Positions 1 to 37,236 of a stretch of DNA of 37,236 nt are shown piece by piece. The notes beneath the pieces are model-generated. The model was not told where the DNA came from, searched no databases, and saw nothing but the letters and a program-made list of their open reading frames with translations. The stretch's first letter is position 1. Each line of letters opens with the position of its first letter. The DNA lies in the IMG/VR virus record IMGVR_UViG_2778261175_000003; one strand, written 5' to 3'. The position numbers and the translations under genes are program-made. This DNA comes from a virus (taxonomy: Duplodnaviria > Heunggongvirae > Uroviricota > Caudoviricetes).

Positions 1-141
1 TTACTGCTTACACTGTAAGAACGCCGCAAACTCCGCTCCCCAGAATCTCATCCGTATTTCGCACAGCGAACCGTGCAACATCCAGATGATGAGGATTGCC
101 GTCACGCAGAACGTGATGGCCGTAAGCGATTTTTGCGACAT
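1..141 (-). CDS. Hok/Gef/PndA-family type I toxin, 46 aa (MSQKSLTAITFCVTAILIIWMLHGSLCEIRMRFWGAEFAAFLQCKQ)
   Basis: Hand translation of the minus strand from ATG (rc of 139-141) to TAA (rc of 1-3). One N-terminal TM helix then SLCEIR...E.AAFL.CK, matching the conserved C-terminal motif of Hok and PndA as recalled. Too short for the ORF track. Confidence 0.65.
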   Translation of the reverse strand: MSQKSLTAITFCVTAILIIWMLHGSLCEIRMRFWGAEFAAFLQCKQ

Positions 142-271
142 AGCACTTGCTCCTTTTCCGGAGAGGCGCTAACCTTTCACTTGTCAAGGTAATGCGGTTA
201 GGGCCTCGGTTAAACAGAAACGTTTTCCGGGGCCTTTCCACATCTGGCCTTCGGGTATTCCCTCCGACCAT
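8..271 (-). CDS. Mok-like overlapping leader frame (87 codons) spanning the hok-like ORF in another frame
   Basis: ORF track entry; starts upstream of and overlaps the toxin ORF in a different frame, as mok does for hok in plasmid R1. No protein similarity recognised; probably regulatory rather than a functional protein. Confidence 0.3.
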   Translation of the reverse strand: MVGGNTRRPDVERPRKTFLFNRGPNRITLTSERLAPLRKRSKCYVAKIAYGHHVLRDGNPHHLDVARFAVRNTDEILGSGVCGVLTV

Positions 272-331
272 CAGCCGAAAGGCACCCGCGCGTAATCTAT
301 CTCTTTTTTGTTACTCCGGCAATTCTGCCTG

Positions 332-592
332 TTAATTTTGAGGTAAGGGCAAACTCATCTGATTGTTTCCTTTGTGTGAAGCTGGCAGTTCATGCCACGG
401 GATACCTTCTGAAGAGTGAGCGCCGGAGGCGTGTTTCGATGTGAATTTATGGAAAGCTTCCAGTGTTGAGAAGCATACACCGCATTCTAGGTTGTTACAT
501 TGGTAATACTTTTGCCGCACGGTGTTTGAATCATTTTCCGGACGACTGGTGCGGATTCGGGCAGATGCGCCACAAAGCGGACAACGGAACAT
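332..592 (-). CDS. ogr: Ogr/Delta-family zinc-finger late transcription activator
   Basis: N-terminus MFRCPLCGASARIRTS...YYQCNNLEC matches the P2 Ogr C4 zinc-finger pattern (CPLC...C..C); location next to D as in P2. Confidence 0.85.
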   Translation of the reverse strand: MFRCPLCGASARIRTSRPENDSNTVRQKYYQCNNLECGVCFSTLEAFHKFTSKHASGAHSSEGIPWHELPASHKGNNQMSLPLPQN

Positions 593-802
593 AGCGACCT
601 CCCTTACTGTGGTGCTTCCGCTATTCTAAGTTGTACTGATACAGATTCCAATTAACAGCTTGTCTTGTGTGAAAAGTGGAAGTTCACAATTGTGATAGCC
701 ATTACTAACGTTGTGATGTATTAGTCAACGGGAAACAAGGCATCTGTAACATATCTATGGATATGTTATATTATTGTTGCCATAGGAAAAACCCGCTTTA
801 AA
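593..802. promoter_or_regulatory. AT-rich divergent intergenic region between ogr and the hxs cassette with two palindromes (TCACAATTGTGA at 684-695; ACATATC-N4-GATATGT at 749-766)
   Basis: Perfect inverted repeats read directly from the sequence; the second lies about 37 bp upstream of the first hxs start. Function as operator or promoter is inferred. Confidence 0.3.
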
Positions 803-1117
803 GTGGTTGCTGATCATGAATATTTGTATTGGAAGATAATTGCAATGAGCGAAAGAGTGTTTGAGAAAGAACTATATTCTGAATGGGTTATACGCAATAG
901 TCTATATTGGATGACTCCGCTTACTCGATGGAAACTCCATGAAGACGTTTCCCACTGGATAATCTCTTTTGAAAACGATAATCCCAAATTCCTTTATGAA
1001 TTCGATAGGCTGCTTAATGATTACTCTTTGCGAGAAAAGCTACAGCATAAAACAGGGGCGTTGAGAGACTCTATTGTCCATAAAGTGCTTCGCAGTGTTG
1101 ATGAGAGGCTTTCATAA
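803..1117 (+). CDS. hxsD: Small protein at the head of the Hxs cassette, HxsD-like by position
   Basis: ORF track (GTG start at 803; alternative ATG at 845). Stop overlaps the start of the next gene (TAATGG). Assignment by operon context only. Confidence 0.45.
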   Translation: MVADHEYLYWKIIAMSERVFEKELYSEWVIRNSLYWMTPLTRWKLHEDVSHWIISFENDNPKFLYEFDRLLNDYSLREKLQHKTGALRDSIVHKVLRSVDERLS

Positions 1118-2505
1118 TGGAATTGATGCCATTTAATTTTGACAGATTGCCTAATGGACAGGTGTTTATAAGCAACCTTGCAGGTTTTCATCATTTCATT
1201 GGTGAGCAAGACCTTATTGATCTTTCTGATGAGCGAATTAGTTCGGAGCAATCAAACGTGCTAGAAAGTAAGCTTTTCATAACCAGTGAAAGCTCATCTG
1301 CTATAACTCCCTATGCTTTAAGTTCTGCTTTTGCAAAACGATTGATGAATGAACTGGCTGTCAGGCCAATTTTCATGATTGTACCCACATTACGTTGTGA
1401 CCATACATGCAAGTATTGCCAGGTTAGTAGAGCTTCTGTTAATGCCTCAGGTTACGACCTAAATCCTGAGCTCATCCCCGATATTATTTCGGCTATTAAA
1501 AAACTATCAACGCCACCTTACAAAATAGAGATACAGGGTGGGGAGCCTCTCTTGCGGTTTGATTTAATTCAGAACATCTATGATCAATGTGCTGAAACGC
1601 TGGGAAGAACCAATTTTGAGATGGTGGTGGCATCAAGTCTGTCTGTCTTGAATGAGGATATGATTGAATGGTCGAGAGACCGGAACATAACGTTCTCTGT
1701 GTCGCTTGATGGTGAGGAAGTTGTTCACAACAGTAATCGAATTCTTGGTCGTGGGCTTGCGTACAGTAGAACAGTGTCAGGGGTAGAGGCTATCAAACAC
1801 TCTTTAGGTGCTGGCCGCGTTGCAACGGTTACTACAGTTACTAAAGAGCTTATCAGACGTCCTGAATCGATTGTTCAGGCTCACTTGTCTCTTGGGCTCA
1901 AGGACATGTTTATCCGACCTGTTAGTCCCTATGGGTTTGCACAAAAAGCTTCTTTCACCTTTTCTATGGACGAATACTTCAGCTTCTATGCCTCGTTGAT
2001 AGATGAAATCCTTAAGATTAATAATGAAGGGATAAGGGTTGTGGAACATTCGGCCTCCATTCATCTGAAAAGGATCTTCAATCCCGGTTTTAGTGGCTAT
2101 GCGGATTTAAAGTCTCCAAGTGGAGTCGTGCTTAACAGTATTCTTTTCAATTATGACGGTCGAGTATATGGTAGCGATGAGAGCCGTATGTTGCAGAAGG
2201 TGAATCCTGAAACGGAGTTCAGTGCGGGTGAAGTTAAGACGCTATCATTTTCTGATAGTCCTTACTATAACGCAGTATTGACTTCATCGTTCAATTTTGC
2301 TCTGCCAGGTTGTGATACATGTGCATATCAACCATTTTGTGGTTCAGATCCATGCCAGAACATAAGTGTACAGGGTGAGCCTGTCGGCGATAGGAGTCGT
2401 TCAACGTTTTGTCAATATCACAAGGGGATGTTCAGGTATCTGATGAACTGCATCTCAGAGGGTGGTTCGAAGGCTGAGATGCTAAAAGGATGGGCATATG
2501 TCTGA
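1117..2505 (+). CDS. hxsB: Radical SAM/SPASM-type maturase, HxsB-like (462 aa)
   Basis: CxxxCxxC motif (CDHTCKYC) about 95 aa from the N-terminus, C-terminal Cys cluster (CDTCAYQPFCGSDPCQ) typical of SPASM/twitch domains; GGEPLL motif; translationally coupled to neighbours. B versus C naming is by size and order, from memory of the TIGRFAMs Hxs families. Confidence 0.75.
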   Translation: MELMPFNFDRLPNGQVFISNLAGFHHFIGEQDLIDLSDERISSEQSNVLESKLFITSESSSAITPYALSSAFAKRLMNELAVRPIFMIVPTLRCDHTCKYCQVSRASVNASGYDLNPELIPDIISAIKKLSTPPYKIEIQGGEPLLRFDLIQNIYDQCAETLGRTNFEMVVASSLSVLNEDMIEWSRDRNITFSVSLDGEEVVHNSNRILGRGLAYSRTVSGVEAIKHSLGAGRVATVTTVTKELIRRPESIVQAHLSLGLKDMFIRPVSPYGFAQKASFTFSMDEYFSFYASLIDEILKINNEGIRVVEHSASIHLKRIFNPGFSGYADLKSPSGVVLNSILFNYDGRVYGSDESRMLQKVNPETEFSAGEVKTLSFSDSPYYNAVLTSSFNFALPGCDTCAYQPFCGSDPCQNISVQGEPVGDRSRSTFCQYHKGMFRYLMNCISEGGSKAEMLKGWAYV

Positions 2506-3610
2506 GGTTATCAGGAACGATATCTTTCATTTTGCTTCTACAGAGAACGTGCCCACGGGGTTCTATCGGTTATGCAAACAAAAACCAGTGAACCCTTTAT
2601 TCTTTTTGCCCAATTTGCTAGTAGTTGCTGAGGGCAATAATGATGCCATTCCACCATGCTTTGATTTCTCTGTTATTAGCACTGAATTATTTGAGTCAAT
2701 TGAAGATGGAGATATTGGGATAATCAACAATGGCAATATGATACGCGTTATTCTGTCACGCAAAGCCAACCATAATACTGTCTTAGTTACGGAACGCTGC
2801 AATAACTTGTGTCTGTTTTGTTCGCAGCCACCAAAGAAAATAAATGATGACTGGCTACTTACCCAATCAGCTCTTGCTATAGCTTCATTTGGCTTGAACG
2901 GAGTTGTTGGGGTCAGCGGTGGTGAACCTTTGCTATATGGGGATGACTTCCTTCACTTCATTGATTTTATCATCGAGAATTCACCAGATACTGCTTTACA
3001 TGTTTTAACAAACGGACGCAAATTTGCTGATACCAACTTTACACAGGAAATGGCAAAGCGAAGCAAAAAGATCAAAATCACCTTTGGTATCCCGCTCTAC
3101 TCATCAAGACCACTTGTGCATGATCATCTGGTAGGGAGTGATGGCGCATTTAATGAAACGGTTAAAGGGTTAATCAATGCAGGAAACTTGGGGATTAATA
3201 TCGAACTTAGAGTTATTCCTACACTGGCTAACTATACCGAATTGGATGATATCGTAGAATTCGCTGGCCGTGTGTTCTCCAACATCAATCAGATTTCCCT
3301 TATGGGGTTGGAGCCTATCGGTTGGGCACGAAAAAACTGGTCCACCATCTTCATTGATCACAGTAGTTATAGTGAGAAAATAATCTCTGCCATAGACGCT
3401 GCATACAGGTCAGGCATACCTCTGACAATTTTTAATTATCCTTTGTGTTATCTTCCTGAAAGGGCTAGGGAGCTTGCTGTTCAGTCGATCTCTGATTGGA
3501 AAAATTACTATCCAAAAGAATGTGATGAATGTACTCAGAAGCCTTCCTGTGCTGGCTATTTCAGTTCCTCAAAAGGCCGTTTTCATCAATCACCGAGACC
3601 AATTTTATGA
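2498..3610 (+). CDS. hxsC: Second radical SAM/SPASM-type maturase, HxsC-like (370 aa)
   Basis: CxxxCxxC (CNNLCLFC), GGEPLL motif, C-terminal Cys cluster (CDECTQKPSC). Start ATGTCTGA overlaps the hxsB stop; its stop overlaps the hxsA start (ATGA). Confidence 0.75.
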   Translation: MSEVIRNDIFHFASTENVPTGFYRLCKQKPVNPLFFLPNLLVVAEGNNDAIPPCFDFSVISTELFESIEDGDIGIINNGNMIRVILSRKANHNTVLVTERCNNLCLFCSQPPKKINDDWLLTQSALAIASFGLNGVVGVSGGEPLLYGDDFLHFIDFIIENSPDTALHVLTNGRKFADTNFTQEMAKRSKKIKITFGIPLYSSRPLVHDHLVGSDGAFNETVKGLINAGNLGINIELRVIPTLANYTELDDIVEFAGRVFSNINQISLMGLEPIGWARKNWSTIFIDHSSYSEKIISAIDAAYRSGIPLTIFNYPLCYLPERARELAVQSISDWKNYYPKECDECTQKPSCAGYFSSSKGRFHQSPRPIL

Positions 3611-4242
3611 AAAAGTTTAATTTTGCTGCTCTACTTCCGGGATTTTTGGCTCTCAACAATTCTGTATGGGCAAGCGATTCATCTACAGGAGCGAGTGATT
3701 TACCTGGTATGACTCTTAATGAGCATGATTTAGTGATAGCTCCACTTAACACGGAAGTCCCATTTTATATCGCAGGGCATCGAAGCCATAGTTCTCATAG
3801 GAGCCATAGCTCTCATAGATCCTCATCAGGTGGTGGATACTATGGTGGAAGTACCCCCTATTATCCAAAAACATACAGCTCACCAAGTTCATCTGGTTCT
3901 TCAAGTTCAGGTGCAAGTTCCTCATCGTCCTCTTCCTCGGTGCGTGCACTTCGTTCTAACGATAATAATAGAACCACTAACACGAGTTCTGTTGGAACTT
4001 CAGAGGTTAACCGTACGAGTAATGGGCTTGCTTCTGATGCAGAGAAACGTAAGCGATTGATTATGCGAGTTCAGTTCGCATTGCTGGACAGGGGATTTTA
4101 TAACGGAAATATTGACGGCATAATGGGGCCATCCACAAGGCTGTCTGTGAAAAATTACCGCATTGCGAATGGATTACCGATTCCTGCAACTGAAACACTC
4201 GACACACAATTGTTAAATTCTTTGAATATATTAGCTCGCTAA
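3607..4242 (+). CDS. hxsA: His-Xaa-Ser repeat protein HxsA-like: signal peptide, (HxS)x5, Ser-rich linker, C-terminal peptidoglycan-binding-like domain
   Basis: Start taken at MKKFNFAALLPGFLALNNSVWA (ATG 3607) rather than the track start 3529. Contains HRSHSSHRSHSSHRS, a poly-Ser tract and a C-terminal segment (RVQFALLDRGFYNGNIDGIMGPSTRLSVKNYRIANGLP) resembling PG_binding_1 domains. Confidence 0.75.
   Translation: MKKFNFAALLPGFLALNNSVWASDSSTGASDLPGMTLNEHDLVIAPLNTEVPFYIAGHRSHSSHRSHSSHRSSSGGGYYGGSTPYYPKTYSSPSSSGSSSSGASSSSSSSSVRALRSNDNNRTTNTSSVGTSEVNRTSNGLASDAEKRKRLIMRVQFALLDRGFYNGNIDGIMGPSTRLSVKNYRIANGLPIPATETLDTQLLNSLNILAR
3778..3822 (+). repeat. Coding tandem repeat encoding five His-Xaa-Ser units
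   Basis: DNA reads cat-cga-agc-cat-agt-tct-cat-agg-agc-cat-agc-tct-cat-aga-tcc; position derived from codon arithmetic in the hxsA frame. Confidence 0.8.
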
Positions 4243-4406: not shown

Positions 4407-5516
4407 TCATTCTGCTATCCATTCCGGGATTTTTGCCTCAAGCTCAAGCTGTGTGGTAAAGCCGCTGTTATCAATGGTGTGCTCGGCTTTTGCAATAATC
4501 CAGTCCTGATTATCAATCTCGCTTTTAAATCCTGTTACCGTGCCATGCATTTCGGGGTAGAGTTCTGCACGCCCACGTGCCAGCGTGATGGAAAATGATG
4601 CGGCTCCGCGTTGTAGCTGCTGCCACTTTGCCGCCGCTGCGCGTCTTGCTGCCTGCTCGTTTTTAAACGTTTTGCGCATGACGTATACATTGCCGTCTGC
4701 GCCCTCCATGTAATCCCCCTCGCGGCTGCTGCTTTTCTCCTTTTTTGTTTTTTGGGCAGAACCACGTTTCGTCACGCTGACTTTTTTCTTTTTGCCATAG
4801 TCCAGGTCCAGCCAGTAAGCGCGTACCCCCGTGTACGCCTGCCGGTCTGCAATGCGGAAGTGATGGCTGTCACCGCTGCTGCGGGTGATGGCGAATGAGG
4901 GCAGCGGCTTTCCGCTGGCGCTCACCCCCTGTCCGGGCACGATGAAAAGCAGTGCGCCGTTCTTGACGGTGGCTATGGCTCCCAGCATGTCTGCCATACG
5001 CGTGAGAAACGAGATGTCACTTTCCTCCGTCTGGTCGGCGTGGTCGATTTCCACCTCTGCCAGCGAGGCGCTGATTTGCGCCTTCAGCCCGTAGCGGTAC
5101 GCGATGGCAGAAACAACCTGCCCCACCGTCACGTCATGCCAGGACACTTCACGCTTCACGTTGAACTCCTGCCGGAAGTCTGCGCTGCTGGCCGTGATGG
5201 TGAGCCTGTCCGGTGGTCCCTCATGTGTCACCTCGTCAACGATGAAGGTTCCTTTGTCCATCAGTGCCTCACCTTTCCAGCCCAGCGCCAGACCCAGCGT
5301 CTGTCCGCGCTTCGGGAGCTGCACGCTGCCGTCGCAGTCGTCAATCGTGAGGGTTAACTGGTCTGCCTCAAATCCCCGGTTGTCGGTCATCGCCAGCGAG
5401 ATGACCCGTCGGGTCAGCGCCGCGTTTTCCGTGCCCTTAACCGTGATGGAAAAATCAGGGATCTTCACGCACTCTGACAGACCGTTCAGGTATCCGCTTA
5501 CGTCCGCAGGGTTCAT
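4407..5516 (-). CDS. D: Tail protein D (late control gene D family)
   Basis: Protein resembles P2 gpD. Start placed at MNPADVSG (ATG at 5514-5516, GGAGA RBS upstream) rather than the track GTG at 5699. Confidence 0.85.
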   Translation of the reverse strand: MNPADVSGYLNGLSECVKIPDFSITVKGTENAALTRRVISLAMTDNRGFEADQLTLTIDDCDGSVQLPKRGQTLGLALGWKGEALMDKGTFIVDEVTHEGPPDRLTITASSADFRQEFNVKREVSWHDVTVGQVVSAIAYRYGLKAQISASLAEVEIDHADQTEESDISFLTRMADMLGAIATVKNGALLFIVPGQGVSASGKPLPSFAITRSSGDSHHFRIADRQAYTGVRAYWLDLDYGKKKKVSVTKRGSAQKTKKEKSSSREGDYMEGADGNVYVMRKTFKNEQAARRAAAAKWQQLQRGAASFSITLARGRAELYPEMHGTVTGFKSEIDNQDWIIAKAEHTIDNSGFTTQLELEAKIPEWIAE

Positions 5517-5588
5517 CGCAATTTCTCCGTCTGTGTCTTCGTACGGCGAAATACTCCCACGCGCACGGAGGCGCTGTAATCCTGCGTA

Positions 5589-5614
5589 TGTTGTCGGAGA
5601 GCGGCGAGAACAGG
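5589..5614 (+). promoter_or_regulatory. Candidate late-promoter activator element TGTTGTCGGAGAGCGGCGAGAACAGG upstream of FI
   Basis: Near-identical 26-nt element recurs upstream of P (24183-24208); each lies about 60-80 bp upstream of a late-gene start and carries TGT...ACA ends reminiscent of the Ogr-dependent P2 late promoter motif. Spacing differs from the canonical TGT-N12-ACA. Confidence 0.4.
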
Positions 5615-5678
5615 CAGCGCGTGAATGCGGGGCTGTTTTTCGGGAGGATGTCGCCACACAAAACACCAGGAGGTGCTC

Positions 5679-11926: not shown

Positions 11927-11934
11927 ATAAAAAA

Positions 11935-11959: not shown

Positions 11960-12055
11960 ATGGCCTTCATGGAAAAGAAGCAAATGTTGTCAATACATTC
12001 TGACTATATATAAATCGCCTGATGATGGCAATGGTGATATTCGGGAAATAAAAAA

Positions 12056-27066: not shown

Positions 27067-27084
27067 CGCGCTCCGCTTGTCTGC

Positions 27085-27125
27085 TGCTTCGTCGGGGCAT
27101 AAAAAATTTATGCCCCGACGAAGCA
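27085..27125. terminator. Perfect palindrome with 19-bp arms (TGCTTCGTCGGGGCATAAA / TTTATGCCCCGACGAAGCA) just downstream of Q
   Basis: Read directly; likely bidirectional terminator or structural element at the Q/cos boundary. Confidence 0.5.
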
Positions 27126-29044: not shown

Positions 29045-29056
29045 CTTCTTTCTCCT

Positions 29057-29257
29057 TCAAAGTTCAGTGTGTTGACAGAGCTGCCCTTTGCGACAGACCA
29101 GTACGCTCCCTTTGCTTGAGTCGGTGATTGTCACCGTGCCGTCATCGCACTGGACAGCGATGACTGTGTTGCTCTTTTCCGTTGTGCAGTTCGGTGTGGC
29201 CGAGTGCGCCAACGGAACGAAAAACAGCGAAAAAAGTAATGTCAGTCTTTTCGTCAT
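29057..29257 (-). CDS. Small secreted protein (66 aa) with signal peptide and four Cys
   Basis: Start at MTKRLTLLFSLFFVPLAHSA with AGGAGG RBS; mature part about 45 aa. Confidence 0.5.
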   Translation of the reverse strand: MTKRLTLLFSLFFVPLAHSATPNCTTEKSNTVIAVQCDDGTVTITDSSKGSVLVCRKGQLCQHTEL

Positions 29258-29332
29258 GGCTACCTCCTGCTTCCTGTTTCTGAGGCATGGCGCACCAGAT
29301 AAAAACTGTCCGCCATGCCTTATCACGTTGCC

Positions 29333-29644
29333 TTATTCTGGGAATAACGCCCTGATGTTTGCGGCCATCTGGCTGGTTGTCTGAGCCTCTGGCGCAGCCT
29401 GTGTTTTGGTTTTTTCTGCACTGACCTGTGTCACGGGTAATGGCTCATCGTCAGCCCATGCAGCCAGCCGGTAAGCCTCTGCCGGATTCTTCTTCAGAAG
29501 CGCCAGTCCGGCCAGAAAAGCCACACGCTGGCCGCTTTTGCGGGCTTCTGGTGTAAGGCTGTCCAGCCAGGCACATGCTTCGCTTTCGTTCTTGACTGCC
29601 GCAGGCTTCAGATAGAAACTTATCCGTCTGGTTGATGTCGTCAT
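29333..29644 (-). CDS. parR: ParR/StbB-like partition adaptor
   Basis: Pattern RRISFYLKP....LDSL.PE.R...RVAFLAGLAL parallels R1 ParR (RRTIAFKLNP....LDSIPQGERSRLNRAALTAGLAL); sits directly downstream of the parM-like gene. Confidence 0.7.
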   Translation of the reverse strand: MTTSTRRISFYLKPAAVKNESEACAWLDSLTPEARKSGQRVAFLAGLALLKKNPAEAYRLAAWADDEPLPVTQVSAEKTKTQAAPEAQTTSQMAANIRALFPE

Positions 29645-29647
29645 GAT

Positions 29648-30607: not shown

Positions 30608-30643
30608 GTCGATTTTCCTTATATTGATGAATTAATCGTTTAT

Positions 30644-30747
30644 GGGATTTTTAAATCCTGTTTTTGCCTGTTTTATGCGCGCTTTATATTTCGCGGCGCG
30701 TTTTTTGCTCATTTACGGGATTTGTGAATCCCGTTTCTGTCTGTTTT
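30644..30747. repeat. Two 31-bp imperfect direct repeats, each with an internal inverted repeat (GGGATTT-N3-AAATCC..GTTT.TG.CTGTTTT), upstream of parM and overlapping the 3' end of A
   Basis: Copies at about 30644-30674 and 30717-30747, separated by an AT-rich spacer; candidate parC-like centromere/operator or part of the replication origin. Confidence 0.45.
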
Positions 30748-33524
30748 TTGTTTCCACTGGTCAGGCCACCCCGCAGCAGGTCTGCTTTGCGGCGGGCGCG
30801 TTCAGTGGTTTCACTGATTCTCTGTGCGTGCTCCGCGTCACGGATGGCGCGCAGCATGTCAGAAAGCACGGTAACGGGGGTTTTCATGGTGTTCTGGTCC
30901 TGCTGAAGTGTGGATGCCAGGCGTGCGGCGGCTTCGGGGTCTGATGCCCCCAGCTGTTCCAGATAGCTGGCGACCGGGTTATGGCGGATCTCCGTGCTAC
31001 TTACGCCGTGATTACGGCTCAGGCGCTGCCAGAGCTGCGTGATTCGGCTGTCCGGGCGGGTATCCGGTTTGCGTACAATTTCAAATCCCTGCGGTGCAAT
31101 GATGCTGCCGTCAACGTACAGACTGCCGCCCCGTAACAGGTGCTGCATCTGTTGTTCACCGATATGCAGGCCGAGAGATTCAGCAGACTCACGCCATTCT
31201 TTAGCGAGTAATTCGTGGTTATCAGGCAAAGGCCGCTGCTGTTTGCAGCTCTGTGTCCAGCTCTGCATTTCATCACTGCTGTTTTTTGCCTGTTTGTCAC
31301 GAAGCGAACGCATCAGCGCCCGGCGTTCGTGCCGTTTCAGTGAGCGTATCCATTCGTTCACTTCAACGCCGTCAGGGAGCTGCGGCCACGGTGCTGACCG
31401 TTCTTCCGGCTGTTCTGTCCCGTTGTTGTCCGTTTCCTGTACACGGGGACAGTTATTGCCACGAGTCCAAGGGGCGGCAGGGCCGCCCTGAAGGTCAAAA
31501 CCATTTTCGCGGGCGCTGTCTTCCGCTTCCGGTTTGCGTCTTACCAGCTTCCAGCTATCCGGATGCGTGCACACACGGGAGGATTCCCCGATGAGTGGTG
31601 ACCAGATCCCGTAAATCTGTACGCTCTGTTCGCCGTAATCGTTCAGCTCATCTGCGAGGTTGTAGGCGGTGCGAATCAGGTAGTCTTTGCGTGGAACAAG
31701 TACGCCACCCTGTTTCTCAATGTAGGTGGCAAAACACCCGGCATCAGCGGCAGCGAGTACCGCATCCATTGCGTCATTTTCCAGACGTTGTGGACCTTCC
31801 GGGTTGCGGGCCATCTGACTGGCAAGGCGGCGGAGTTCACGCCATACCTGACGGGAGGGGATACCAAAGAACTGGAACTGGCGGACGCGGTGAAGACGCG
31901 CCCAGCCGATGGCGCGTTCCACGCTCTCGGCCATTGATTTTCCGGTTTCGTGGTCCACGCGTGGCTTGCCCGTTTTCGGGTCGATGCCATCCACGGCGCG
32001 GCTGTCCAGGTTCTTTCCGATGTAGGTGGCGATGTAGCTGGTTGGCGTGCCTTTTGAGCCGTCGACGTACTCCGCCTTAAAACGCGGAGTTATGTCATCG
32101 CCCAGCTCGTGGCGGTCTTCCAGAATGGCAATATCGCAGACGTGGGACACGATGGTTTCAATCTCGTCAGGATGAGCAAAAACCATCATGTGCCAGTGCA
32201 CCGTGCCGTCATGATGAGGCTCCACCGTGCGGATGCCATACCAGCGCAGGCCGTCGCGGTTCAGTTTTTTGCGGACCGCCGCAAAAAACGTGTTAACCAG
32301 GTAATCGCTGGAGTCGCGCATAGTGGCCCCGTTCCATTTGGGATTCGGATGACCGTTCTCCGTTGTTGCGTGGTATTTTGACGGGCAGGTGACAGTCAGA
32401 AACACCGCTCTGTCGCCACGGGCTTCGGCCAGAAGTTCCAGCCCCTTCATGGTGGCCATCATTTCTGCCTTACGGTGAACCGGGTTACTTACTCCCGCGT
32501 AATACACTGTCTCGAGATCAATCGTGAACCCGTCTTCATTTTCCAGCATGAAACTTTTCAGGAAATCGCGTGTTTTCTCGCGCTGTGCGCGAAACTCGCT
32601 TAACGCGTCCTGGCTCAGATAGGGTGATGTTTTTCTGGAAACCAGACAGGCGGCGCGGAGTTGTTCTTCTCTCCACTCGCAACGTAACAGCCACAGTTTG
32701 CGTTTCCACCATTCCGCACAGGTCAGGCGAAGGATTGCGCCCGGCAGCAGCTCCGTGTCCGGTTCGTTCCTCCGGTCTTTGTCTGTTGTCAGTGCGTCAT
32801 AATGTGGAGGCGTGGCGTGCAGGTGTAACGCCATGCGGGCCAGCATCTGATACGCCTTCAGCGTTACATCCATGGTCAGTTCGCCATCAGTCGCGCCAAA
32901 GCCATCGCAGAGTTTTTCGAAGGTGCTGCTGAACATCGCCGCCGTCATGGTGGCCAGCGTCTGTATCTGGTGTTTGTTGAGCTGCGGCAGGTAAAGCAAA
33001 TCGTCCAGGCGTTCGCGTCCGGCAAGGGAGCGATAACCCGGTGTCAGCCAGCGGTGATCGGTGCGGTCCAGACGTTCGAATATTTTGCGCAGGGTTCCGC
33101 GCGCGTAGCGTTCAGCCTGCCAGCTCTTTTTGCCTTTCTGGCGATCGGCTTCCTGTTTTTTGCGCAGGAAAGAGAGGTGGCGGCTCAGTGGTTCACGCAG
33201 ATAAACAGGTAGTGCCTTTAGTATGGCAAAGGCACGGGCTACCGGGTCTTGTTCTGTTGCCCGGCGCTTACTGATGATGCTCTGTGCCAGCTTTTCACGC
33301 TGTCCGGCTTCCTCAAGGGATGCCATGAGTTTTTTACCCATGGCAGATTGTGCGAAAAAGGCTTCTTCCTTCGCTTCCTGTTCTTCCTGTGCCCTTTTGT
33401 CCGCCTCAAGGTAGTAACGGATGGCGCGTTGCAGGTCGGTTTCAGTTTCCTGCCTGCGCTCCGTAAATCTGGCCGGATCAATGGCTGGTCGTGGTTCATT
33501 CCAGCTCCATGCAAACTCACTCAT
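30684..33524 (-). CDS. A: Replication initiation endonuclease A (rolling-circle, HUH-type)
   Basis: Very long ORF with HUH motif (TVHWHMMVFAHP) and tyrosine pair (YIATYIGKN). Start at MSEFAWSW (ATGA overlap with the upstream gene). Longer than P2 A as I recall it. Confidence 0.8.
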   Translation of the reverse strand: MSEFAWSWNEPRPAIDPARFTERRQETETDLQRAIRYYLEADKRAQEEQEAKEEAFFAQSAMGKKLMASLEEAGQREKLAQSIISKRRATEQDPVARAFAILKALPVYLREPLSRHLSFLRKKQEADRQKGKKSWQAERYARGTLRKIFERLDRTDHRWLTPGYRSLAGRERLDDLLYLPQLNKHQIQTLATMTAAMFSSTFEKLCDGFGATDGELTMDVTLKAYQMLARMALHLHATPPHYDALTTDKDRRNEPDTELLPGAILRLTCAEWWKRKLWLLRCEWREEQLRAACLVSRKTSPYLSQDALSEFRAQREKTRDFLKSFMLENEDGFTIDLETVYYAGVSNPVHRKAEMMATMKGLELLAEARGDRAVFLTVTCPSKYHATTENGHPNPKWNGATMRDSSDYLVNTFFAAVRKKLNRDGLRWYGIRTVEPHHDGTVHWHMMVFAHPDEIETIVSHVCDIAILEDRHELGDDITPRFKAEYVDGSKGTPTSYIATYIGKNLDSRAVDGIDPKTGKPRVDHETGKSMAESVERAIGWARLHRVRQFQFFGIPSRQVWRELRRLASQMARNPEGPQRLENDAMDAVLAAADAGCFATYIEKQGGVLVPRKDYLIRTAYNLADELNDYGEQSVQIYGIWSPLIGESSRVCTHPDSWKLVRRKPEAEDSARENGFDLQGGPAAPWTRGNNCPRVQETDNNGTEQPEERSAPWPQLPDGVEVNEWIRSLKRHERRALMRSLRDKQAKNSSDEMQSWTQSCKQQRPLPDNHELLAKEWRESAESLGLHIGEQQMQHLLRGGSLYVDGSIIAPQGFEIVRKPDTRPDSRITQLWQRLSRNHGVSSTEIRHNPVASYLEQLGASDPEAAARLASTLQQDQNTMKTPVTVLSDMLRAIRDAEHAQRISETTERARRKADLLRGGLTSGNKKQTETGFTNPVNEQKTRREI

Positions 33525-33910
33525 GGCTGGTATCCCGTCACGCGCTGCCACTCCTGCAAGAAGATGGTGGAAAGGCGGTTAAATTCAGCGGTGTATTCAC
33601 TCAGCGAGACACACCCGCCAGCAGTGCGATGCGCCAGCATTGCCGCAAATACGGAGGCCGGGGAGTCGTAATACGCCAGCAGTGATTCGCCGTGCGGTGT
33701 CAGGCAGTGCAACGCCAGTCCGTGTGGTGTGAAGTCCACGCGGTAGCAGTCGTCTACTGTGAAATAAAGGGTATCCACATTCTCCGGTTTTGTGGTGCGT
33801 GCTCTGTTGTCACGACCACGAATGTAGAGATCAAATAATCCCCGAAGAATGGGAGCCAGACGGGTGTCCTGTGTGCGCACCCATCTTGTGAAGTCATGAG
33901 CGTCAATCAT
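33521..33910 (-). CDS. Hypothetical early-region protein (129 aa)
   Basis: ORF track; translationally coupled to A; no family recognised. Confidence 0.45.
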   Translation of the reverse strand: MIDAHDFTRWVRTQDTRLAPILRGLFDLYIRGRDNRARTTKPENVDTLYFTVDDCYRVDFTPHGLALHCLTPHGESLLAYYDSPASVFAAMLAHRTAGGCVSLSEYTAEFNRLSTIFLQEWQRVTGYQP

Positions 33911-34000
33911 GCTGCAATTCTCTCTACTAAGGATGTGCGAAGGCTTCCTGCCAAAAAACTCAGAAGCGGTCGGTTACAGAAATTGGCGTTCTACGAGTAG

Positions 34001-34237
34001 TTATTGCTGGCTTGAGGTTCGTTTCTGTTTAATTCCGTGCATGCTGTAGAAGAAATCAAAAGTGTTATCTATGCGTATCATGAGCTCACGCTGCATCGCT
34101 TCTGGTGTTTCTGGTTCACCTGGTGAGCCAACTCCCGCGAAGAAATCACCGATCTCGCTTTGAATAAGTGCCTTTAGCGTTGCTGAGGAATTCAGGTGTG
34201 TGCGGTGATGTCTGCGAGTGATTCTTCTCCTGCTCAT
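34001..34237 (-). CDS. Hypothetical early-region protein (78 aa)
   Basis: ORF track; ATGA-coupled to the upstream gene. Confidence 0.4.
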   Translation of the reverse strand: MSRRRITRRHHRTHLNSSATLKALIQSEIGDFFAGVGSPGEPETPEAMQRELMIRIDNTFDFFYSMHGIKQKRTSSQQ

Positions 34238-34437
34238 TTGCGTGGATCCTGTACCTGTCGGATAAGATTCACCCGCGCCACATTAGTGGCGCAGAAGTAA
34301 GTACCGTCAGTGAGATAGATGTGGTGTGCATCCTTTTCTGAGCGGTGTTTGTCGATTGTGGTAATCAGGCGTTCGTCGACTTCGTATTCACGTCCTCTGG
34401 AAGTGAAACGAACGACAGGAAAATGCTTAATTGCCAT
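34234..34437 (-). CDS. Hypothetical early-region protein (67 aa)
   Basis: ORF track; no family recognised. Confidence 0.4.
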   Translation of the reverse strand: MAIKHFPVVRFTSRGREYEVDERLITTIDKHRSEKDAHHIYLTDGTYFCATNVARVNLIRQVQDPRK

Positions 34438-34524
34438 TACGCCTCCTGGGCGTGTGCGAATACCTCCGCGAATGCGGATTGTTTTTACATTTTCTTATTT
34501 AACCAAGGGTTTTTATTTGCGCTG

Positions 34525-34638
34525 TTATTCGCCAGTGAAAATACGTTCAATCTTTTTTACTGAATGAATAATTTGCATAATCCCAATGGCGCAGACCACC
34601 GAAATAATCAGGACAAGCCATGAGATAAATATACTCAT
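34525..34638 (-). CDS. Small hydrophobic peptide (37 aa, MSIFISWLVLIISVVCAIGIMQIIHSVKKIERIFTGE)
   Basis: Hand translation; start overlaps the stop of the upstream gene (ATGA), suggesting translational coupling; one predicted TM helix. Below the ORF-track size cutoff. Confidence 0.35.
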   Translation of the reverse strand: MSIFISWLVLIISVVCAIGIMQIIHSVKKIERIFTGE

Positions 34639-34877
34639 GCAATATTCCCCAGCTTATACGGTTCAATATGCTCCCCGCATTCTGCGGCACAGATCAGCTC
34701 AGAAAGTTCGTTAAGTGCATCCAGATCATCAGCGTAAAAAGCCACGTCATACAGACTCCGGATTGCCCTGGTCAATGAGTCACGGGCTGCACGTTCAGCA
34801 TGAGCACCTGATGCACTTAAGCGAAAATAAAAACGCTCAAGTGCTTTGTTAATGAGAGTTTTATATTCTTTGCCCAT
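34635..34877 (-). CDS. Hypothetical early-region protein (80 aa)
   Basis: ORF track; no family recognised. Confidence 0.4.
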   Translation of the reverse strand: MGKEYKTLINKALERFYFRLSASGAHAERAARDSLTRAIRSLYDVAFYADDLDALNELSELICAAECGEHIEPYKLGNIA

Positions 34878-34888
34878 CGCAACGCCCT

Positions 34889-35167
34889 TTAATCTGCTTT
34901 CTGAATTTCAGCTTCTGAATCCATACAAATAATTTCGATATAGGGTTCATCGCCATTAATCTTACGTGCTTTTTCAGCTTCGCTAATGATTCCGTGTACA
35001 GTCTGGTACGGAAGTTCTACGGTCAGGCGCGTGCCGTTCAGATAAACGTAAGTAGCTGCATTTTTTTCTGATGGGACAACTCCATCAATAGCTGATGCGC
35101 GCAATAACAGTTCACCGCGAAAATCAATAAAACGGATAAATACACCTTGTGCATGCTCTTTGGTCAT
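34889..35167 (-). CDS. Hypothetical early-region protein (92 aa from MTKEHAQG)
   Basis: ORF track with start moved to M34 to avoid overlap with the upstream gene. Confidence 0.4.
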   Translation of the reverse strand: MTKEHAQGVFIRFIDFRGELLLRASAIDGVVPSEKNAATYVYLNGTRLTVELPYQTVHGIISEAEKARKINGDEPYIEIICMDSEAEIQKAD

Positions 35168-35177
35168 AACGCACCTG

Positions 35178-35516
35178 TTATAAATCAGTCTGTTTAATAA
35201 AACTTTGCCCGCGAAGCAGACGATCAACCGTGCGAAGTGCTTCGTACAATGTGAAATCCTGTCCAAACTGATTGTCGCCGTTGCTCAGAGCAAAAATGCG
35301 GTTTCCGGTAAATGGGTTGCGTTGGCATCTGTGAACCACGATTCCAGCTTTTTCAATCAGCCAGGTGTGTTCGCCAATTTGTTTTACTGTATGGCCATCT
35401 GGCGTTGCGTGTGTCTCGCTCAGGCTGTAGCGGATGTTGCTGCGTGATGCGCTGGTAGCGAAACGGTTAGCTTGGCGTTCCGTTTCGGTGCGAAAATTAC
35501 GGCGTTGCTTCAGCAT
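35178..35516 (-). CDS. Hypothetical early-region protein (112 aa)
   Basis: ORF track; first gene after cox; no family recognised. Confidence 0.4.
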   Translation of the reverse strand: MLKQRRNFRTETERQANRFATSASRSNIRYSLSETHATPDGHTVKQIGEHTWLIEKAGIVVHRCQRNPFTGNRIFALSNGDNQFGQDFTLYEALRTVDRLLRGQSFIKQTDL

Positions 35517-35530
35517 AAAATGACACCTCG

Positions 35531-35809
35531 TTATTTTGTCATCTGCACGTATTTCTCTGCGTTTCTGATGGTTTTCAGGAAAATTGCGAAGAGATTTACT
35601 GTACGTTTTGAGTTTTTTTCTTCTTGGTTGATGGGAAGGGCTGCTCTGTCAGCCTGCCTTTTCACTGCATTAACAGTTTGATTGGTACGCTTCGCGTAAT
35701 CTTTCAGGCTTTCTTCGAGTACCGGTAATCCATGCTCATCGCGGTATGGGTAGAACGCCGCCAAACGCTCAAAATCCGCTTGCTCGTATGTGTTCAAGAG
35801 CTTTGTCAT
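35531..35809 (-). CDS. cox: Cox-like excisionase/early repressor
   Basis: Divergent from the C repressor; HTH segment DYAKRTNQTVNAVKRQADRAALPI parallels P2 Cox (EFAKLIGKSTGAVRRMIDKGKLPVI). Confidence 0.6.
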   Translation of the reverse strand: MTKLLNTYEQADFERLAAFYPYRDEHGLPVLEESLKDYAKRTNQTVNAVKRQADRAALPINQEEKNSKRTVNLFAIFLKTIRNAEKYVQMTK

Positions 35810-35900
35810 GATGTGATAACCTGTTCAGTCTGTGGTTATTTGTTGCTAAAAGTCGTCTATAGGCGACTTTTAGGGTTAATTTAGTCGTCTGGAGACCACC
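35810..35900. promoter_or_regulatory. Immunity-region divergent promoter/operator with direct repeats AGTCGTCT (35851-35858, 35883-35890) and an AGTCG...CGACT inverted repeat
   Basis: Repeats read directly; position between cox and C as for P2 Pe/Pc and the C operators. Confidence 0.45.
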
Positions 35901-36212
35901 ATGTCAAGTGGGTATGAAAAAAAACTGAAAGAGATACGGAAAAGTGAAGGGTTAACTCAAGCTGAGTTTGCTGATGTTACTGGGATAAATCTCGGAACTA
36001 TAAAGAATTATGAGAGCGGTAAAAGAGAGGTTGGTTTAAGCGTTGTTGATCGCGTAATTAATTCTAAGGATTTCGAAAAATACACTATATGGCTTATGAC
36101 GGGAAAAACAAATGAGGCTGCTGGGCAGATCAGTCCCTCTCTCTCCCCTGATGGGCCAGAAAACACATCGTCTTCTCAAAAATCCCGCAAGACTGGTACA
36201 CAGCCCGGCTAA
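35901..36212 (+). CDS. C: Immunity repressor C (HTH-XRE)
   Basis: Matches P2 C along its length (e.g. KYTIWLMTGKTNEAAGQISPSLSPDG vs KYTLWFMTNQIAPESGQIAPALAHFG from memory). Confidence 0.8.
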   Translation: MSSGYEKKLKEIRKSEGLTQAEFADVTGINLGTIKNYESGKREVGLSVVDRVINSKDFEKYTIWLMTGKTNEAAGQISPSLSPDGPENTSSSQKSRKTGTQPG

Positions 36213-36261
36213 TCATGGAACGCTGGGGGCATGGTGGTCTTGTAACGCTGGGGTTTCACGA

Positions 36262-37236
36262 ATGAGCATAAAATCAATTCCGGGAGGGTATCTTCTTGAC
36301 ATGCGCCCTGAGGGGCGTAAAGGCAAACGCATTCGCAAAAAATTTAAAACGAAATCGGATGCAGTTTTATATGAGCGGTGGGTGCTGGCGCAACAGCATA
36401 ACAATGAGTGGAAAGGAAACTCCATTGATCGCCGTCCGCTGTCGGTGCTTATTGACTTGTGGTGGAAATACCACGGCCAGCTAATGAAGTCAGGGCATAA
36501 CACGCGCCTTAAATTGCTGCGCTTGAGTGAGGCAATGGATGACCCGTGTGTGCATAAACTTAATACAACGATGCTCACCGAGCTACGTGTGTCCAGGATA
36601 GAGCAGGGGATACAGCCCAGCACCATTAATCGAGAGATTGGGGCGTTAAGCGCGATGTTTACCGCACTCATCTCATCCGGCCATTTTCTTAACGATAACC
36701 CCGTTCAAGGCCTTAAAGGAATGAAGGTTAACGAGCGCGAAATGGGATATCTGAGTAAGTCTGAATGTGTTCAGTTGCTGGATGCACTGGCTGAAAATCC
36801 CGATGAACGGCTGGCTGTCGAAATCCTTCTGTCGACCGGGGCGCGATGGGGCGAGGTAGCGGCACTGGAGCAGCGCCGTGTTCTTCATTGTCGAATCACT
36901 TTTTCAAAAACGAAGAACAGCAAAAACCGTACCGTTCCTATTTCTGAAAGCCTGTTTGAAAAGATCAAAAAACGGGGCGGGAAACTGGTGTTTCCGACGC
37001 TGGATTATCCATTAGTTCGCGATGTCATCAAAACGGTCGCACCTGATGTTCCTGACGGCCAGGCTGTTCATGCGCTGCGCCACACCTTCGCCAGTCATTT
37101 CATGATGAACGGCGGCAATATTCTGACGCTCCAGAAAATTCTGGGGCACGCAAAGATTCAGACAACGATGATTTATGCCCATCTTGCGCCGGATTACTTG
37201 CAGGATGCGGTGAGATTTAATCCTATTGCTGGGTAA
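36262..37236 (+). CDS. int: Tyrosine integrase
   Basis: Catalytic R...HxxR...Y signature (TGARWGE, HALRHTFAS, TMIYAHL); start at MSIKSIPGG (M51 of the track ORF); downstream of C as in P2. Confidence 0.85.
   Translation: MSIKSIPGGYLLDMRPEGRKGKRIRKKFKTKSDAVLYERWVLAQQHNNEWKGNSIDRRPLSVLIDLWWKYHGQLMKSGHNTRLKLLRLSEAMDDPCVHKLNTTMLTELRVSRIEQGIQPSTINREIGALSAMFTALISSGHFLNDNPVQGLKGMKVNEREMGYLSKSECVQLLDALAENPDERLAVEILLSTGARWGEVAALEQRRVLHCRITFSKTKNSKNRTVPISESLFEKIKKRGGKLVFPTLDYPLVRDVIKTVAPDVPDGQAVHALRHTFASHFMMNGGNILTLQKILGHAKIQTTMIYAHLAPDYLQDAVRFNPIAG

What the first reader, a model, noticed from the sequence alone, without database searches (positions are those of the whole stretch)
1..37236. Plasmid-style maintenance modules (hok-like toxin plus parMR) on a phage with integrase
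A Hok-family post-segregational killing toxin and a ParMR partition system are both hallmark stability loci of plasmid R1; their co-occurrence on one P2-like element suggests recombination with a plasmid and possibly a phage-plasmid lifestyle.
Basis: inference. Interest (0 to 1): 0.5.

Follow-up and report, generated by a model that had tools for sequence, protein, structure and literature searches.

The report
Integrated P88-like prophage with hok, parMR
The window is an ordinary chromosomally integrated P88-like (P2-family) E. coli prophage whose hok-type toxin and ParM/ParR genes are real, intact and typical of that phage lineage, so they do not show a recent plasmid fusion or a plasmid lifestyle.

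Summary
Observation confirmed, interpretation mostly not. A Hok/Gef toxin (1-141, minus strand) sits behind a hok-type mRNA leader. An intact ParM (29648-30607) and ParR (29333-29644) lie directly downstream of the rolling-circle replication gene gpA. A tyrosine integrase is at 36262-37236. The element is a P88-like (Xuanwuvirus) prophage. A 271-kb E. coli contig is 100% identical to the window over 17.9 kb and continues into an att core and btuCED. Relatives are integrated between ihfA and btuC, with hok about 264 nt inside the att repeat. This parMR DNA occurs in 1304 of 5426 complete E. coli genomes, at 1442 chromosomal places and 2 plasmid places. Genuine plasmid ParMs are at most about 53% identical, so any plasmid origin is old. 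parM and parR are under purifying selection (dN/dS about 0.1 and 0.15-0.35). A pair of 42-nt repeats with palindromic cores upstream of parM is found only where parMR is present, and is a candidate centromere. It is not an R1-type iteron array. Inferred function: the modules stabilise the transient excised or infecting circular genome, as srpMRC plus hipAB do in SXT/R391 elements. These genes are already annotated in public P88-like records, so interest is low to moderate.

The parts
1..141 (-). hok: 46-aa Hok/Gef-family membrane toxin
   Evidence: PF01848 at 32.3 bits against a cut-off of 22. phrog_251 at E 2.7e-23. The identical protein is listed in 1219 blocks of the assembly collection; all 10 contigs shown carry it next to ogr, and in 9 of the 10 ogr was called as a gene.
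8..271 (-). mok-like reading frame overlapping hok (true start codon uncertain)
   Evidence: ORF list. It stays open across the hok start, as mok does in R1 hok/sok. No family hit.
128..287 (-). hok mRNA 5' leader; the 5' end GGGUGCCUU (287-279) is complementary to a 3' fold-back element that lies outside the window
   Evidence: Rfam RF01794 at 47.3 bits, E 2.3e-9, below the gathering score of 59. A full-length mRNA built with the 3' end of relative L012 folds with the 5' end paired to AAGGCACCC, z -6.8.
294..322 (-). candidate hok promoter (-35 TTGCCG, 17 nt spacer, -10 TAGATT)
   Evidence: Read by eye. It matches 8 of 12 positions, below the scan threshold, so one search did not report it. 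Inference only.
332..592 (-). ogr/delta late-gene activator
   Evidence: PF04606 at 52.3 bits.
29333..29644 (-). parR: centromere-binding adaptor (StbB/ParR family)
   Evidence: PF10784 at 80.9 bits. phrog_2515 at E 1.5e-54. N-terminal domain and C-terminal tail conserved, linker variable, dN/dS 0.15-0.35. The tail motif is shared with a plasmid ParR.
29648..30607 (-). parM: actin-like segregation ATPase
   Evidence: StbA_N plus ParM C-terminal domain. E 7.9e-93 to R1 ParM 1mwk with the nucleotide-binding motifs intact. dN/dS 0.09-0.18.
30636..30677 (-). candidate parC/operator repeat 2 (intergenic, just upstream of parM), palindromic core 30642-30661
   Evidence: 42-nt direct repeat. The palindrome motif occurs only twice in the window against 0.15 expected. 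It is present in every parMR-bearing locus and absent from L006, which lacks parMR.
30709..30750 (-). candidate parC/operator repeat 1 (inside the 3' end of gpA), palindrome ACGGGATTTGTGAATCCCGT at 30715-30734
   Evidence: It lies 73 nt from repeat 2.
30684..33551 (-). gpA rolling-circle replication endonuclease, immediately upstream of parM
   Evidence: PF05840 at 428.7 bits. No consensus promoter or minus-strand terminator was found between it and parM.
35531..35809 (-). first gene of the early operon (the position cox holds in P2)
   Evidence: ORF. Annotated as a DNA-binding protein in O26. No Pfam hit.
35901..36212 (+). immunity repressor (HTH)
   Evidence: PF01381 and PF12844.
36262..37236 (+). 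tyrosine integrase; att core lies 513 nt beyond its stop, outside the window
   Evidence: Int_N plus Phage_integrase. The identical protein is listed in 1890 blocks of the assembly collection; all 8 contigs shown are chromosomal and carry it at ihfA/btuC. att core located.

Best explanation
The window is nearly all of a P88-like (genus Xuanwuvirus, P2 family) temperate phage, integrated by its tyrosine integrase into the ihfA terminator between ihfA and btuC of an E. coli chromosome.

It carries two accessory stability modules that are typical of this phage lineage. The first is a hok-type type I toxin locus at the ogr end. The second is a type II partition cassette (candidate parC, parM, parR) fused to the 3' end of the replication gene gpA.

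Proposed working (inferred). parMR has no recognisable promoter of its own and no terminator separates it from gpA. It would therefore be made together with the early replication operon, when the genome is an extrachromosomal circle: after infection, or after derepression and excision. ParR would bind the two palindrome-containing repeats and ParM filaments would push sister circles apart. Both daughter cells would then keep a copy until the phage integrates again or lyses the cell. Cells that still lose the element would be killed by Hok translated from its stable mRNA once the unstable antisense RNA decays.

Together the modules would act as insurance against loss of a transiently plasmid-like phage, not as evidence of a plasmid prophage.
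For: Identity and context (shown):
- The window shares DNA and gene order with P88, phiSM and related phages.
- It is 100% identical over 17,904 nt to a 271.5-kb contig that continues into the att core and btuCED.
- A 25-bp att core flanks the element in all 18 relatives examined, 264 nt beyond hok and 513 nt beyond int.
- This parMR sits on chromosomes 1442 times and on plasmids twice in 5426 complete E. coli genomes.

Modules intact (shown):
- Family scores.
- ParM motifs conserved against R1 ParM.
- dN/dS 0.09-0.18 for parM and 0.15-0.35 for parR, with all 12 ORF pairs intact.
- The ParR C-terminal tail NIRALFPE is conserved and resembles the plasmid ParR tail NIKNLFPD.
- The palindrome pair is present exactly where parMR is present: 18 loci plus the window. 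It is absent from L006 (same integrase, no parMR) and occurs only twice in a whole 34-kb phage genome.
- The hok mRNA shows 5'/3' fold-back pairing, z -6.8, and a leader match at E 2e-9.

Timing (inferred): no consensus promoter or minus-strand terminator lies between gpA and parM.

Precedents:
- SXT/R391 elements use rolling-circle replication, srpMRC and hipAB to keep the excised circle (PMC4489591).
- P88 and phiSM are inducible chromosomal prophages (PMC5285337, PMC6456863).
Against: - No experiment on ParMR or hok in any P88-like phage was found in the library.
- The candidate centromere has only two sites and no significant 11-nt periodicity (z 1.7), unlike the ten iterons of R1 parC.
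- In this window the second palindrome carries two arm substitutions.
- The Sok antisense promoter was not found.
- The hok leader scores below Rfam's gathering threshold.
- The hok 3' fold-back element was taken from relatives, because the window ends at the hok stop codon.
- Co-transcription with gpA rests on the absence of consensus signals, which is weak evidence.
- parMR is dispensable: L006 lacks it.
- P2-type phages are not known to need partition.
Confidence: 0.5

Rival explanations
1. Lytic-cycle helpers. ParM/ParR position or move replicating phage DNA for efficient replication or packaging, as the actin-like AlpC with its adaptor AlpA does for the Corynebacterium prophage CGP3. Hok helps lysis at the end of the cycle, as hokW-sokW does for the Sp5 prophage.
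For: - parMR directly follows gpA with no promoter or terminator between them, so it probably belongs to the replication operon.
- AlpAC is required for efficient CGP3 DNA replication (PMC4446434, PMC5539076).
- hokW-sokW raises Sp5 phage release about twofold after mitomycin C (PMC8621323).
- Purifying selection on parMR fits any active role.
Against: - Of 50,697 phage records, only 14 P88-like records and 2 of phage-plasmid D6 encode a ParM homologue, so other sequenced P2-family phages replicate without one.
- L006 shows this lineage can do without it too.
- The ParM here is a close structural homologue of the plasmid-pushing R1 ParM, not of AlpC.
- The hok locus has the stable-mRNA fold-back design typical of post-segregational killing.
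Confidence: 0.25
2. Host-benefit or competition genes. Hok acts as an abortive-infection defence against other phages. The prophage parMR/parC interferes with plasmids or related phages that use a similar centromere (incompatibility). Both would sit alongside the HXS defence operon as cargo.
For: - hok lies at the prophage edge beside a variable cargo slot that here holds the HXS antiphage system (PMC13128918).
- The slot next to parMR carries defence-like genes (AAA ATPase plus S8 peptidase) in L006 and L009.
Against: - That preprint found no enrichment of hok next to defence systems.
- parMR has no promoter of its own, which argues against expression in the lysogen.
- The one plasmid ParR compared is only 21% identical, so cross-reaction with plasmid centromeres is unlikely.
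- PADLOC has no match for the neighbouring genes.
Confidence: 0.12
3. The element is, or is becoming, a phage-plasmid that is maintained extrachromosomally in lysogens after a recent recombination with an R1-like plasmid.
For: - One 34,461-bp circular E. coli record labelled a plasmid is a complete P88-like genome with hok, parMR, cox and int.
- The phage-plasmid D6 carries a ParM homologue (48% identity) with an adjacent annotated partition protein.
Against: - The source-identical contig is chromosomal.
- The count is 1442 chromosomal against 2 plasmid places.
- A 2.9-kb immunity/integrase stretch of the circular record is integrated in other strains at 99.7-99.9% identity.
- The integrase and att repeats are intact.
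- No plasmid-type replication initiator is present.
- Plasmid ParMs are at most about 53% identical.
Confidence: 0.05
4. The modules are decaying relics without function.
For: - parMR is absent from some relatives (L006).
- IS elements interrupt the hok upstream region in L034 and L036.
- The second palindrome is degenerate in this window.
Against: - All 12 parM/parR pairs are intact, with dN/dS well below 1.
- The catalytic motifs are conserved.
- The identical Hok protein is listed in 1219 blocks of the assembly collection.
- The module is present in 24% of complete E. coli genomes.
Confidence: 0.03

Closest known systems
Escherichia phage P88 and Citrobacter phage phiSM (Peduoviridae, genus Xuanwuvirus)
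   Same: They share the backbone and gene order. The order gpA-parM-parR is the same, with ParM 97.5-97.8% identical. P88-like records carry a hok-family gene annotated 'MokW-like host killing' next to ogr. Both are inducible chromosomal prophages (PMC5285337, PMC6456863).
   Different: This element has a different integrase and att site: ihfA/btuC with a 25-bp core, against the 14-bp attP reported for P88. It has a divergent parR allele (83-86% DNA identity). Its cargo differs too: HXS operon, Ead/Ea22, ClpX zinc-finger protein.
parMRC (stbAB) of plasmid R1/NR1, type II partition
   Same: The ParM fold and all nucleotide-binding motifs are conserved (E 7.9e-93). A ParR-family adaptor lies immediately downstream. 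Repeats lie upstream of parM.
   Different: ParM identity is only about 50%. No solved ParR matches by sequence. The candidate centromere is two 42-nt repeats with palindromic cores, not 2 x 5 direct 11-bp iterons (the R1 layout is from my own knowledge). No promoter was recognised inside it. It sits on an integrating phage behind a rolling-circle initiator, not on a low-copy theta plasmid.
hok/sok of plasmid R1 and prophage hokW-sokW (Sp5)
   Same: A small Hok/Gef toxin, an overlapping mok-like frame, a structured leader, and 5'/3' fold-back pairing followed by a terminator. Prophage location is common for hok (bioRxiv 10.1101/2025.08.07.668861).
   Different: The antisense gene was not identified here. 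The leader scores below the Rfam threshold. The locus is the last gene before the att site of a P2-family phage, whereas hokW lies in the Sp5 prophage (PMC8621323).
srpMRC plus hipAB of SXT/R391 integrative conjugative elements
   Same: An integrating element that replicates as a circle from an HUH-type rolling-circle initiator and combines a ParMRC-like partition system with a toxin-antitoxin to avoid loss of the excised form (PMC4489591). This is the closest functional analogy.
   Different: It is a conjugative element, not a phage. SrpM is only distantly related to ParM. Its toxin system is type II. Function is shown there and only inferred here.
AlpAC of Corynebacterium prophage CGP3
   Same: An actin-like protein plus a DNA-binding adaptor encoded by an integrated prophage and acting on phage DNA (PMC4446434, PMC5539076).
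   Different: It belongs to a different actin-like family and host phylum. Its role is in replication and transport, not in a shown segregation function.

Membership tests
[quoted passage not shown] | Small (about 50 aa) Hok/Gef membrane toxin | tested here: met
   PF01848 at 32.3 bits against a cut-off of 22. phrog_251 at E 2.7e-23.
[quoted passage not shown] | Structured hok mRNA leader | tested here: inconclusive
   RF01794 matches full length at 47.3 bits and E 2.3e-9, but below the gathering score of 59.
[quoted passage not shown] | 5' end pairs with a 3' fold-back element in the full-length mRNA | tested here: met
   GGGUGCCUU (287-279) pairs with AAGGCACCC about 70 nt past the stop codon, MFE z -6.8. 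The 3' sequence comes from relative L012 because the window ends at the stop codon.
[quoted passage not shown] | Overlapping mok reading frame needed for hok translation | tested here: met
   ORF 8-271 overlaps the hok start in another frame. The start codon actually used is unknown.
[quoted passage not shown] | Antisense Sok RNA with its own promoter | tested here: inconclusive
   No consensus promoter on the plus strand of 1-700. None was convincing by eye.
[quoted passage not shown] | Toxicity and post-segregational killing | not testable with these tools
   Needs cloning and plasmid-loss assays.
ParMRC type II partition system | Full-length ParM actin-like ATPase with intact nucleotide-binding motifs | tested here: met
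   StbA_N plus ParM C-terminal domain. Alignment to 1mwk over residues 2-316 with the motifs conserved.
ParMRC type II partition system | ParR adaptor encoded directly downstream, with a C-terminal ParM-binding tail | tested here: met
   PF10784 at 80.9 bits. The tail is conserved in 12 of 12 relatives and resembles a plasmid ParR tail. Actual binding was not tested.
ParMRC type II partition system | parC centromere: an array of direct iterons around the par promoter | tested here: inconclusive
   Only two 42-nt repeats with palindromic cores, 73 nt apart. No 11-nt periodicity, z 1.7. No promoter. The pair does strictly co-occur with parMR.
ParMRC type II partition system | Carried by a low-copy plasmid replicon | tested here: not met
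   Chromosomal prophage.
Phage-plasmid | Prophage maintained extrachromosomally | tested here: not met
   The source-identical contig continues into btuCED. The count is 1442 chromosomal against 2 plasmid places.
Phage-plasmid | Plasmid-type replication initiator | tested here: not met
   gpA (PF05840) is the only replication initiator recognised. No early gene matches a plasmid replication family.
P88-like P2-family temperate phage (Xuanwuvirus) | P2-type structural, lysis, ogr, gpA, repressor and integrase genes in the order seen in P88 | tested here: met
   DNA matches to P88, phiSM, Chuche and 520873. Gene content shown.
P88-like P2-family temperate phage (Xuanwuvirus) | Site-specific integration with direct att repeats | tested here: met
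   A 25-bp core on both sides in relatives, and on the int side of the source-identical contig. The window itself holds neither copy.

The most novel reading that the evidence does not exclude
P88-like phages are present in about a quarter of complete E. coli genomes. They may pass through a genuinely plasmid-like carrier phase. In that phase gpA-replicated circles would be actively segregated by a phage-specific ParMR acting on a minimal two-site centromere, with hok killing segregants. That would make them an integrative tailed-phage counterpart of SXT/R391 elements, and a widespread, unstudied intermediate between integrative phages and phage-plasmids.
Probability: 0.3. Interest if true: 0.55.

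Novelty: already known. Interest (0 to 1): 0.27.

Why it matters
As an observation it changes nothing. hok and parM/parR are already annotated in P88, phiSM and over a thousand E. coli prophages, and phage protein-family catalogues list them.

The worthwhile point is that nobody appears to have tested why an integrating P2-family phage keeps a selected partition system right behind its rolling-circle initiator. If it stabilises excised or newly infecting circles, that would explain part of the persistence of this very common prophage lineage. It would also extend the 'excision insurance' idea from conjugative elements to tailed phages.

The result is also a warning for automated phage-plasmid calls: partition genes plus a toxin on a phage do not imply a plasmid lifestyle.

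Tried and rejected
- Rfam at gathering thresholds found nothing in the window. Only a relaxed scan found the hok leader.
- No tRNA gene is present as an att target.
- The att core was searched in the window and is absent, so the ends had to be taken from relatives.
- The first attempts to compare the flanks by script failed because one locus file was missing. The sequences were read directly instead.
- An R1-type iteron array upstream of parM was tested by autocorrelation and rejected (lag 11 z 1.7).
- Repeats upstream of two plasmid parM genes and the phage D6 parM showed no shared motif with this locus.
- A consensus promoter for parM and for Sok was sought and not found.
- ParR has no sequence match among solved structures.
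- PADLOC gave no hit for the cargo genes next to parMR, and only weak radical-SAM matches for HxsB and HxsC.
- Literature searches for P88, Xuanwuvirus and ParM found only annotation-level mentions. A ParM mention in an O157 proteome paper turned out to be an author's name. The phage-plasmid paper does not treat this lineage.
- The look-up with HxsA did not return the source contig itself, so the hok-side junction of the exact source was not seen.
- Structure prediction and the large protein searches were not used, because about 50% identity to a solved ParM made them unnecessary.


Full report
**What is in the window**

The 37,236 bases are a nearly complete P2-family prophage of the P88 type (genus Xuanwuvirus). 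DNA searches match Escherichia phages P88, Chuche, 520873 and PhiR44_2, and Citrobacter phage phiSM, over the tail, head, replication and early regions.

Gene order in window coordinates:
- hok 1-141 (minus strand)
- ogr 332-592 (minus strand)
- hxsDBCA 845-4242 (plus strand)
- D 4407-5699 (minus strand), followed by the sheath, tube and tape-measure genes
- baseplate, fibre, lysis and head genes
- terminase 24257-26011 and portal 26011-27066 (plus strand)
- a minus-strand block: Ead/Ea22 protein, a 196-aa ORF, a ClpX zinc-finger protein, an 89-aa ORF, parR 29333-29644, parM 29648-30607, gpA 30684-33551 and small early genes
- an HTH repressor 35901-36212 and the integrase 36262-37236 (plus strand)

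**Check of the observation**

- The 46-aa product of 1-141 is a Hok/Gef protein: PF01848 at 32.3 bits against a cut-off of 22, and phrog_251 at E 2.7e-23.
- ParM is full length. It matches both ParM Pfam domains and aligns over residues 2-316 with R1 ParM (1mwk, E 7.9e-93). The DDGSTNIK, MPESIPAG, DLGGTTLD and GGGAE motifs are kept.
- ParR matches PF10784 at 80.9 bits.
- The integrase has both expected domains.

**The hok locus**

- The leader at 128-287 (minus strand) matches Rfam RF01794 over the whole model, at 47.3 bits and E 2.3e-9. That is under the gathering score of 59.
- A mok-like frame at 8-271 overlaps the hok start.
- The window ends at the hok stop codon, so the 3' part of the mRNA is missing.
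- In relatives that are identical to the window over the shared part, the next 130 nt contain AAGGCACCC. This is the exact complement of the predicted 5' end GGGUGCCUU (window 287-279). An intrinsic terminator follows.
- The assembled 408-nt RNA folds with these ends paired. The energy is -176 kcal/mol against a shuffle mean of -133, z -6.8. This is the fold-back design of hok mRNAs.
- I could not find a Sok promoter, so the antitoxin is inferred from the family architecture only.
- A weak hok promoter can be read by eye: TTGCCG, 17 nt, TAGATT, at 322-294.

**The par locus**

- parM starts 76 nt after the gpA stop, and parR follows parM after 3 nt.
- Upstream of parM lie two 42-nt direct repeats, 73 nt apart (30636-30677 and 30709-30750). 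Each has a palindromic core of the type ACGGGATT-N4-AATCCCGT.
- That motif occurs twice in the window against 0.15 expected.
- Across all fetched loci, the pair is present next to parM in every locus that has parMR. It is absent from L006, which has the same integrase and a gpA gene but no parMR. It occurs nowhere else in a whole 34-kb relative.
- The pair is therefore tied to parMR and is the best candidate for the centromere and operator.
- It is not an R1-type array. There are only two sites and lag-11 autocorrelation is not significant, z 1.7.
- In this window the second palindrome carries two arm substitutions.
- No consensus promoter and no minus-strand terminator separate gpA from parM. 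I infer that parMR is read through from the early replication operon.

**Are the par genes alive?**

- Against 11 relatives, parM has dS 0.09-0.14 and dN about 0.01, giving dN/dS 0.09-0.18.
- parR has dN/dS 0.15-0.35.
- All 12 ORF pairs are intact.
- ParR variation is concentrated in residues 67-92. The N-terminal DNA-binding part and the C-terminal tail MAxNIRALFPE are conserved.
- A plasmid ParR that is only 21% identical ends in NIKNLFPD. That fits a conserved ParM-binding tail.

**Replicon context**

- The integrase protein is listed in 1890 blocks of the assembly collection. All 8 contigs shown are chromosomes or megabase chromosomal contigs with the order int, a 131-aa ORF, btuC, btuE, btuD.
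- The Hok protein is listed in 1219 blocks. All 10 contigs shown have pheT, ihfA, hok, ogr in that order; in L020 ogr is not among the called genes.
- In O26:H11 strain 11368, a 25-bp direct repeat GGCCGCTCTGCGGCCTTTTTTCTTT (the ihfA terminator) lies about 264 nt beyond the hok stop and 513 nt beyond the int stop.
- The same core is found at those offsets in all 18 relatives and is absent from the window.
- A look-up with this window's rarer ParR allele returned six contigs with the window's gene order and btuCED beyond int.
- One of them, NLOV01000001.1 (271.5 kb, GCA_002230535.1), is 100% identical to window 19333-37236. It carries the att core 513 nt after int, followed by sequence 98.8% identical to the O26 chromosome.
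- The element in the window is therefore an integrated E. coli prophage, and hok lies inside it.

**Distribution and origin**

- The parMR segment matches 1304 of 5426 complete E. coli genomes, at 1442 places on chromosomes and 2 on plasmids. In the 40 records listed it lies next to a replication endonuclease gene.
- Among 50,697 phage records, ParM homologues occur only in 14 P88-like records (93-98% identity) and in the phage-plasmid D6 (48%).
- Among plasmid records, six have a ParM at least 95% identical. Five are large replicons of 228 kb to 1.4 Mb whose matches carry P88-like phage genes, and one is a 34,461-bp circle. All the other records kept (the search stops at the 5000 best-scoring) are at most about 53% identical.
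- That circle is a complete P88-like genome. A 2.9-kb stretch of it spanning the immunity region and integrase is integrated in other strains' chromosomes at 99.7-99.9% identity.
- There is thus no sign of a recent exchange with an R1-like plasmid or of a plasmid lifestyle. A plasmid origin in the distant past remains plausible.
- parMR is not universal in the lineage. L006 has an AAA ATPase and an S8 peptidase in its place, and L009 has both sets.
- Phage 500465-2 is annotated with a hok-family gene but does not appear among the ParM hits. The two modules are therefore independent accessories.

**Mechanism**

Shown:
- an integrated P2-family phage;
- an intact hok locus with the fold-back design;
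- an intact, selected ParM/ParR pair fused to the replication operon;
- a repeat pair specific to parMR.

Inferred:
- The cassette is expressed when the early operon is on, which is when the genome is a free circle replicated by gpA.
- ParR bound to the repeats and ParM filaments then separate the circles so that both daughter cells keep a copy until reintegration or lysis.
- Hok kills cells that lose the element.

The closest working precedent is the SXT/R391 family. There, rolling-circle replication, the ParMRC-like srpMRC and a toxin-antitoxin together keep the excised circle (PMC4489591).

The main rival is a role in the lytic cycle. Precedents are AlpAC of prophage CGP3 (PMC4446434) and hokW-sokW, which helps Sp5 release (PMC8621323). 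I rate the stabiliser model at about 0.5 and the lytic-helper model at about 0.25.

**Comparison with what is known, and novelty**

- parM and the partition protein are annotated in the P88 and phiSM records, and P88-like records annotate the hok-family gene as 'MokW-like host killing'.
- The phiSM paper lists the partition protein only as a 'fitness' gene.
- PHROGs has families for all three proteins.
- A recent preprint reports that hok is enriched in prophages and that 9.3% of Escherichia phages encode one.

The finding is therefore already known as an annotation. What seems untested is the function of ParMR in an integrating P2-family phage.

**Verdict**

Interest is low to moderate.

Noticed in passing
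window 845-4242 (+): hxsDBCA, the HXS antiphage system that blocks phage DNA entry (PMC13128918), sits as cargo between ogr and gene D. All 10 contigs shown that carry the identical HxsA, and 44 complete E. coli genomes, have it inside this prophage next to the ihfA-side att. That paper states that 77% of E. coli hxs operons lie outside predicted prophages, which may be a prophage-boundary effect. A copy about 90% identical is common on Klebsiella plasmids.
   Followed up: partly
L034 1498-2586 and L036 1542-2770 (relatives; corresponds to window about 142-331): An IS element is inserted between hok and ogr, in the hok promoter/leader region. This resembles the IS-inactivated chromosomal hok loci of E. 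coli K-12 (from my own knowledge) and suggests the toxin locus is sometimes selected against.
   Followed up: no
L006 891-4261 and L009 1-2652 (relatives; corresponds to window about 27100-29300): The slot between the par region and the portal gene is variable cargo. L006 has an AAA ATPase plus an S8 peptidase instead of parMR. L009 has those two genes in addition to parMR. This window has Ead/Ea22, a 196-aa ORF, a ClpX zinc-finger protein and an 89-aa ORF with an apparent signal peptide.
   Followed up: partly
window 11927-13760: A low-GC island (39% against 55-62% around it) holds two ORFs, 12393-12731 (minus strand) and 13103-13756 (plus strand). Neither has a Pfam, PHROG or PADLOC match. 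Part of the adjacent region (13120-14970) is 86% identical to side-tail-fibre regions of lambdoid phages.
   Followed up: partly
window 1 and 37236; L029 1-2408: The window begins exactly at the hok stop codon and ends exactly at the int stop codon. About 264 nt (hok mRNA 3' end and terminator) and 513 nt (a 131-aa ORF between int and the att core) of the prophage are therefore cut off. Any boundary-based test on the window alone would fail.
   Followed up: yes
window 29333-29644: This window's parR is a minority allele: 83-86% DNA identity to the common one, against 96-97% for parM. The exact protein is listed in only 41 blocks of the assembly collection. It coincides with two substitutions in the arms of the second upstream palindrome, a possible co-change of adaptor and binding site.
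   Followed up: partly
L021 (NZ_CP148288.1, 34,461 bp): A complete P88-like genome is deposited as a circular E. coli 'plasmid'. It has a different integrase plus a Com/DNA-methyltransferase pair between int and hok. It is probably an excised or replicating circle captured by assembly.
   Followed up: partly
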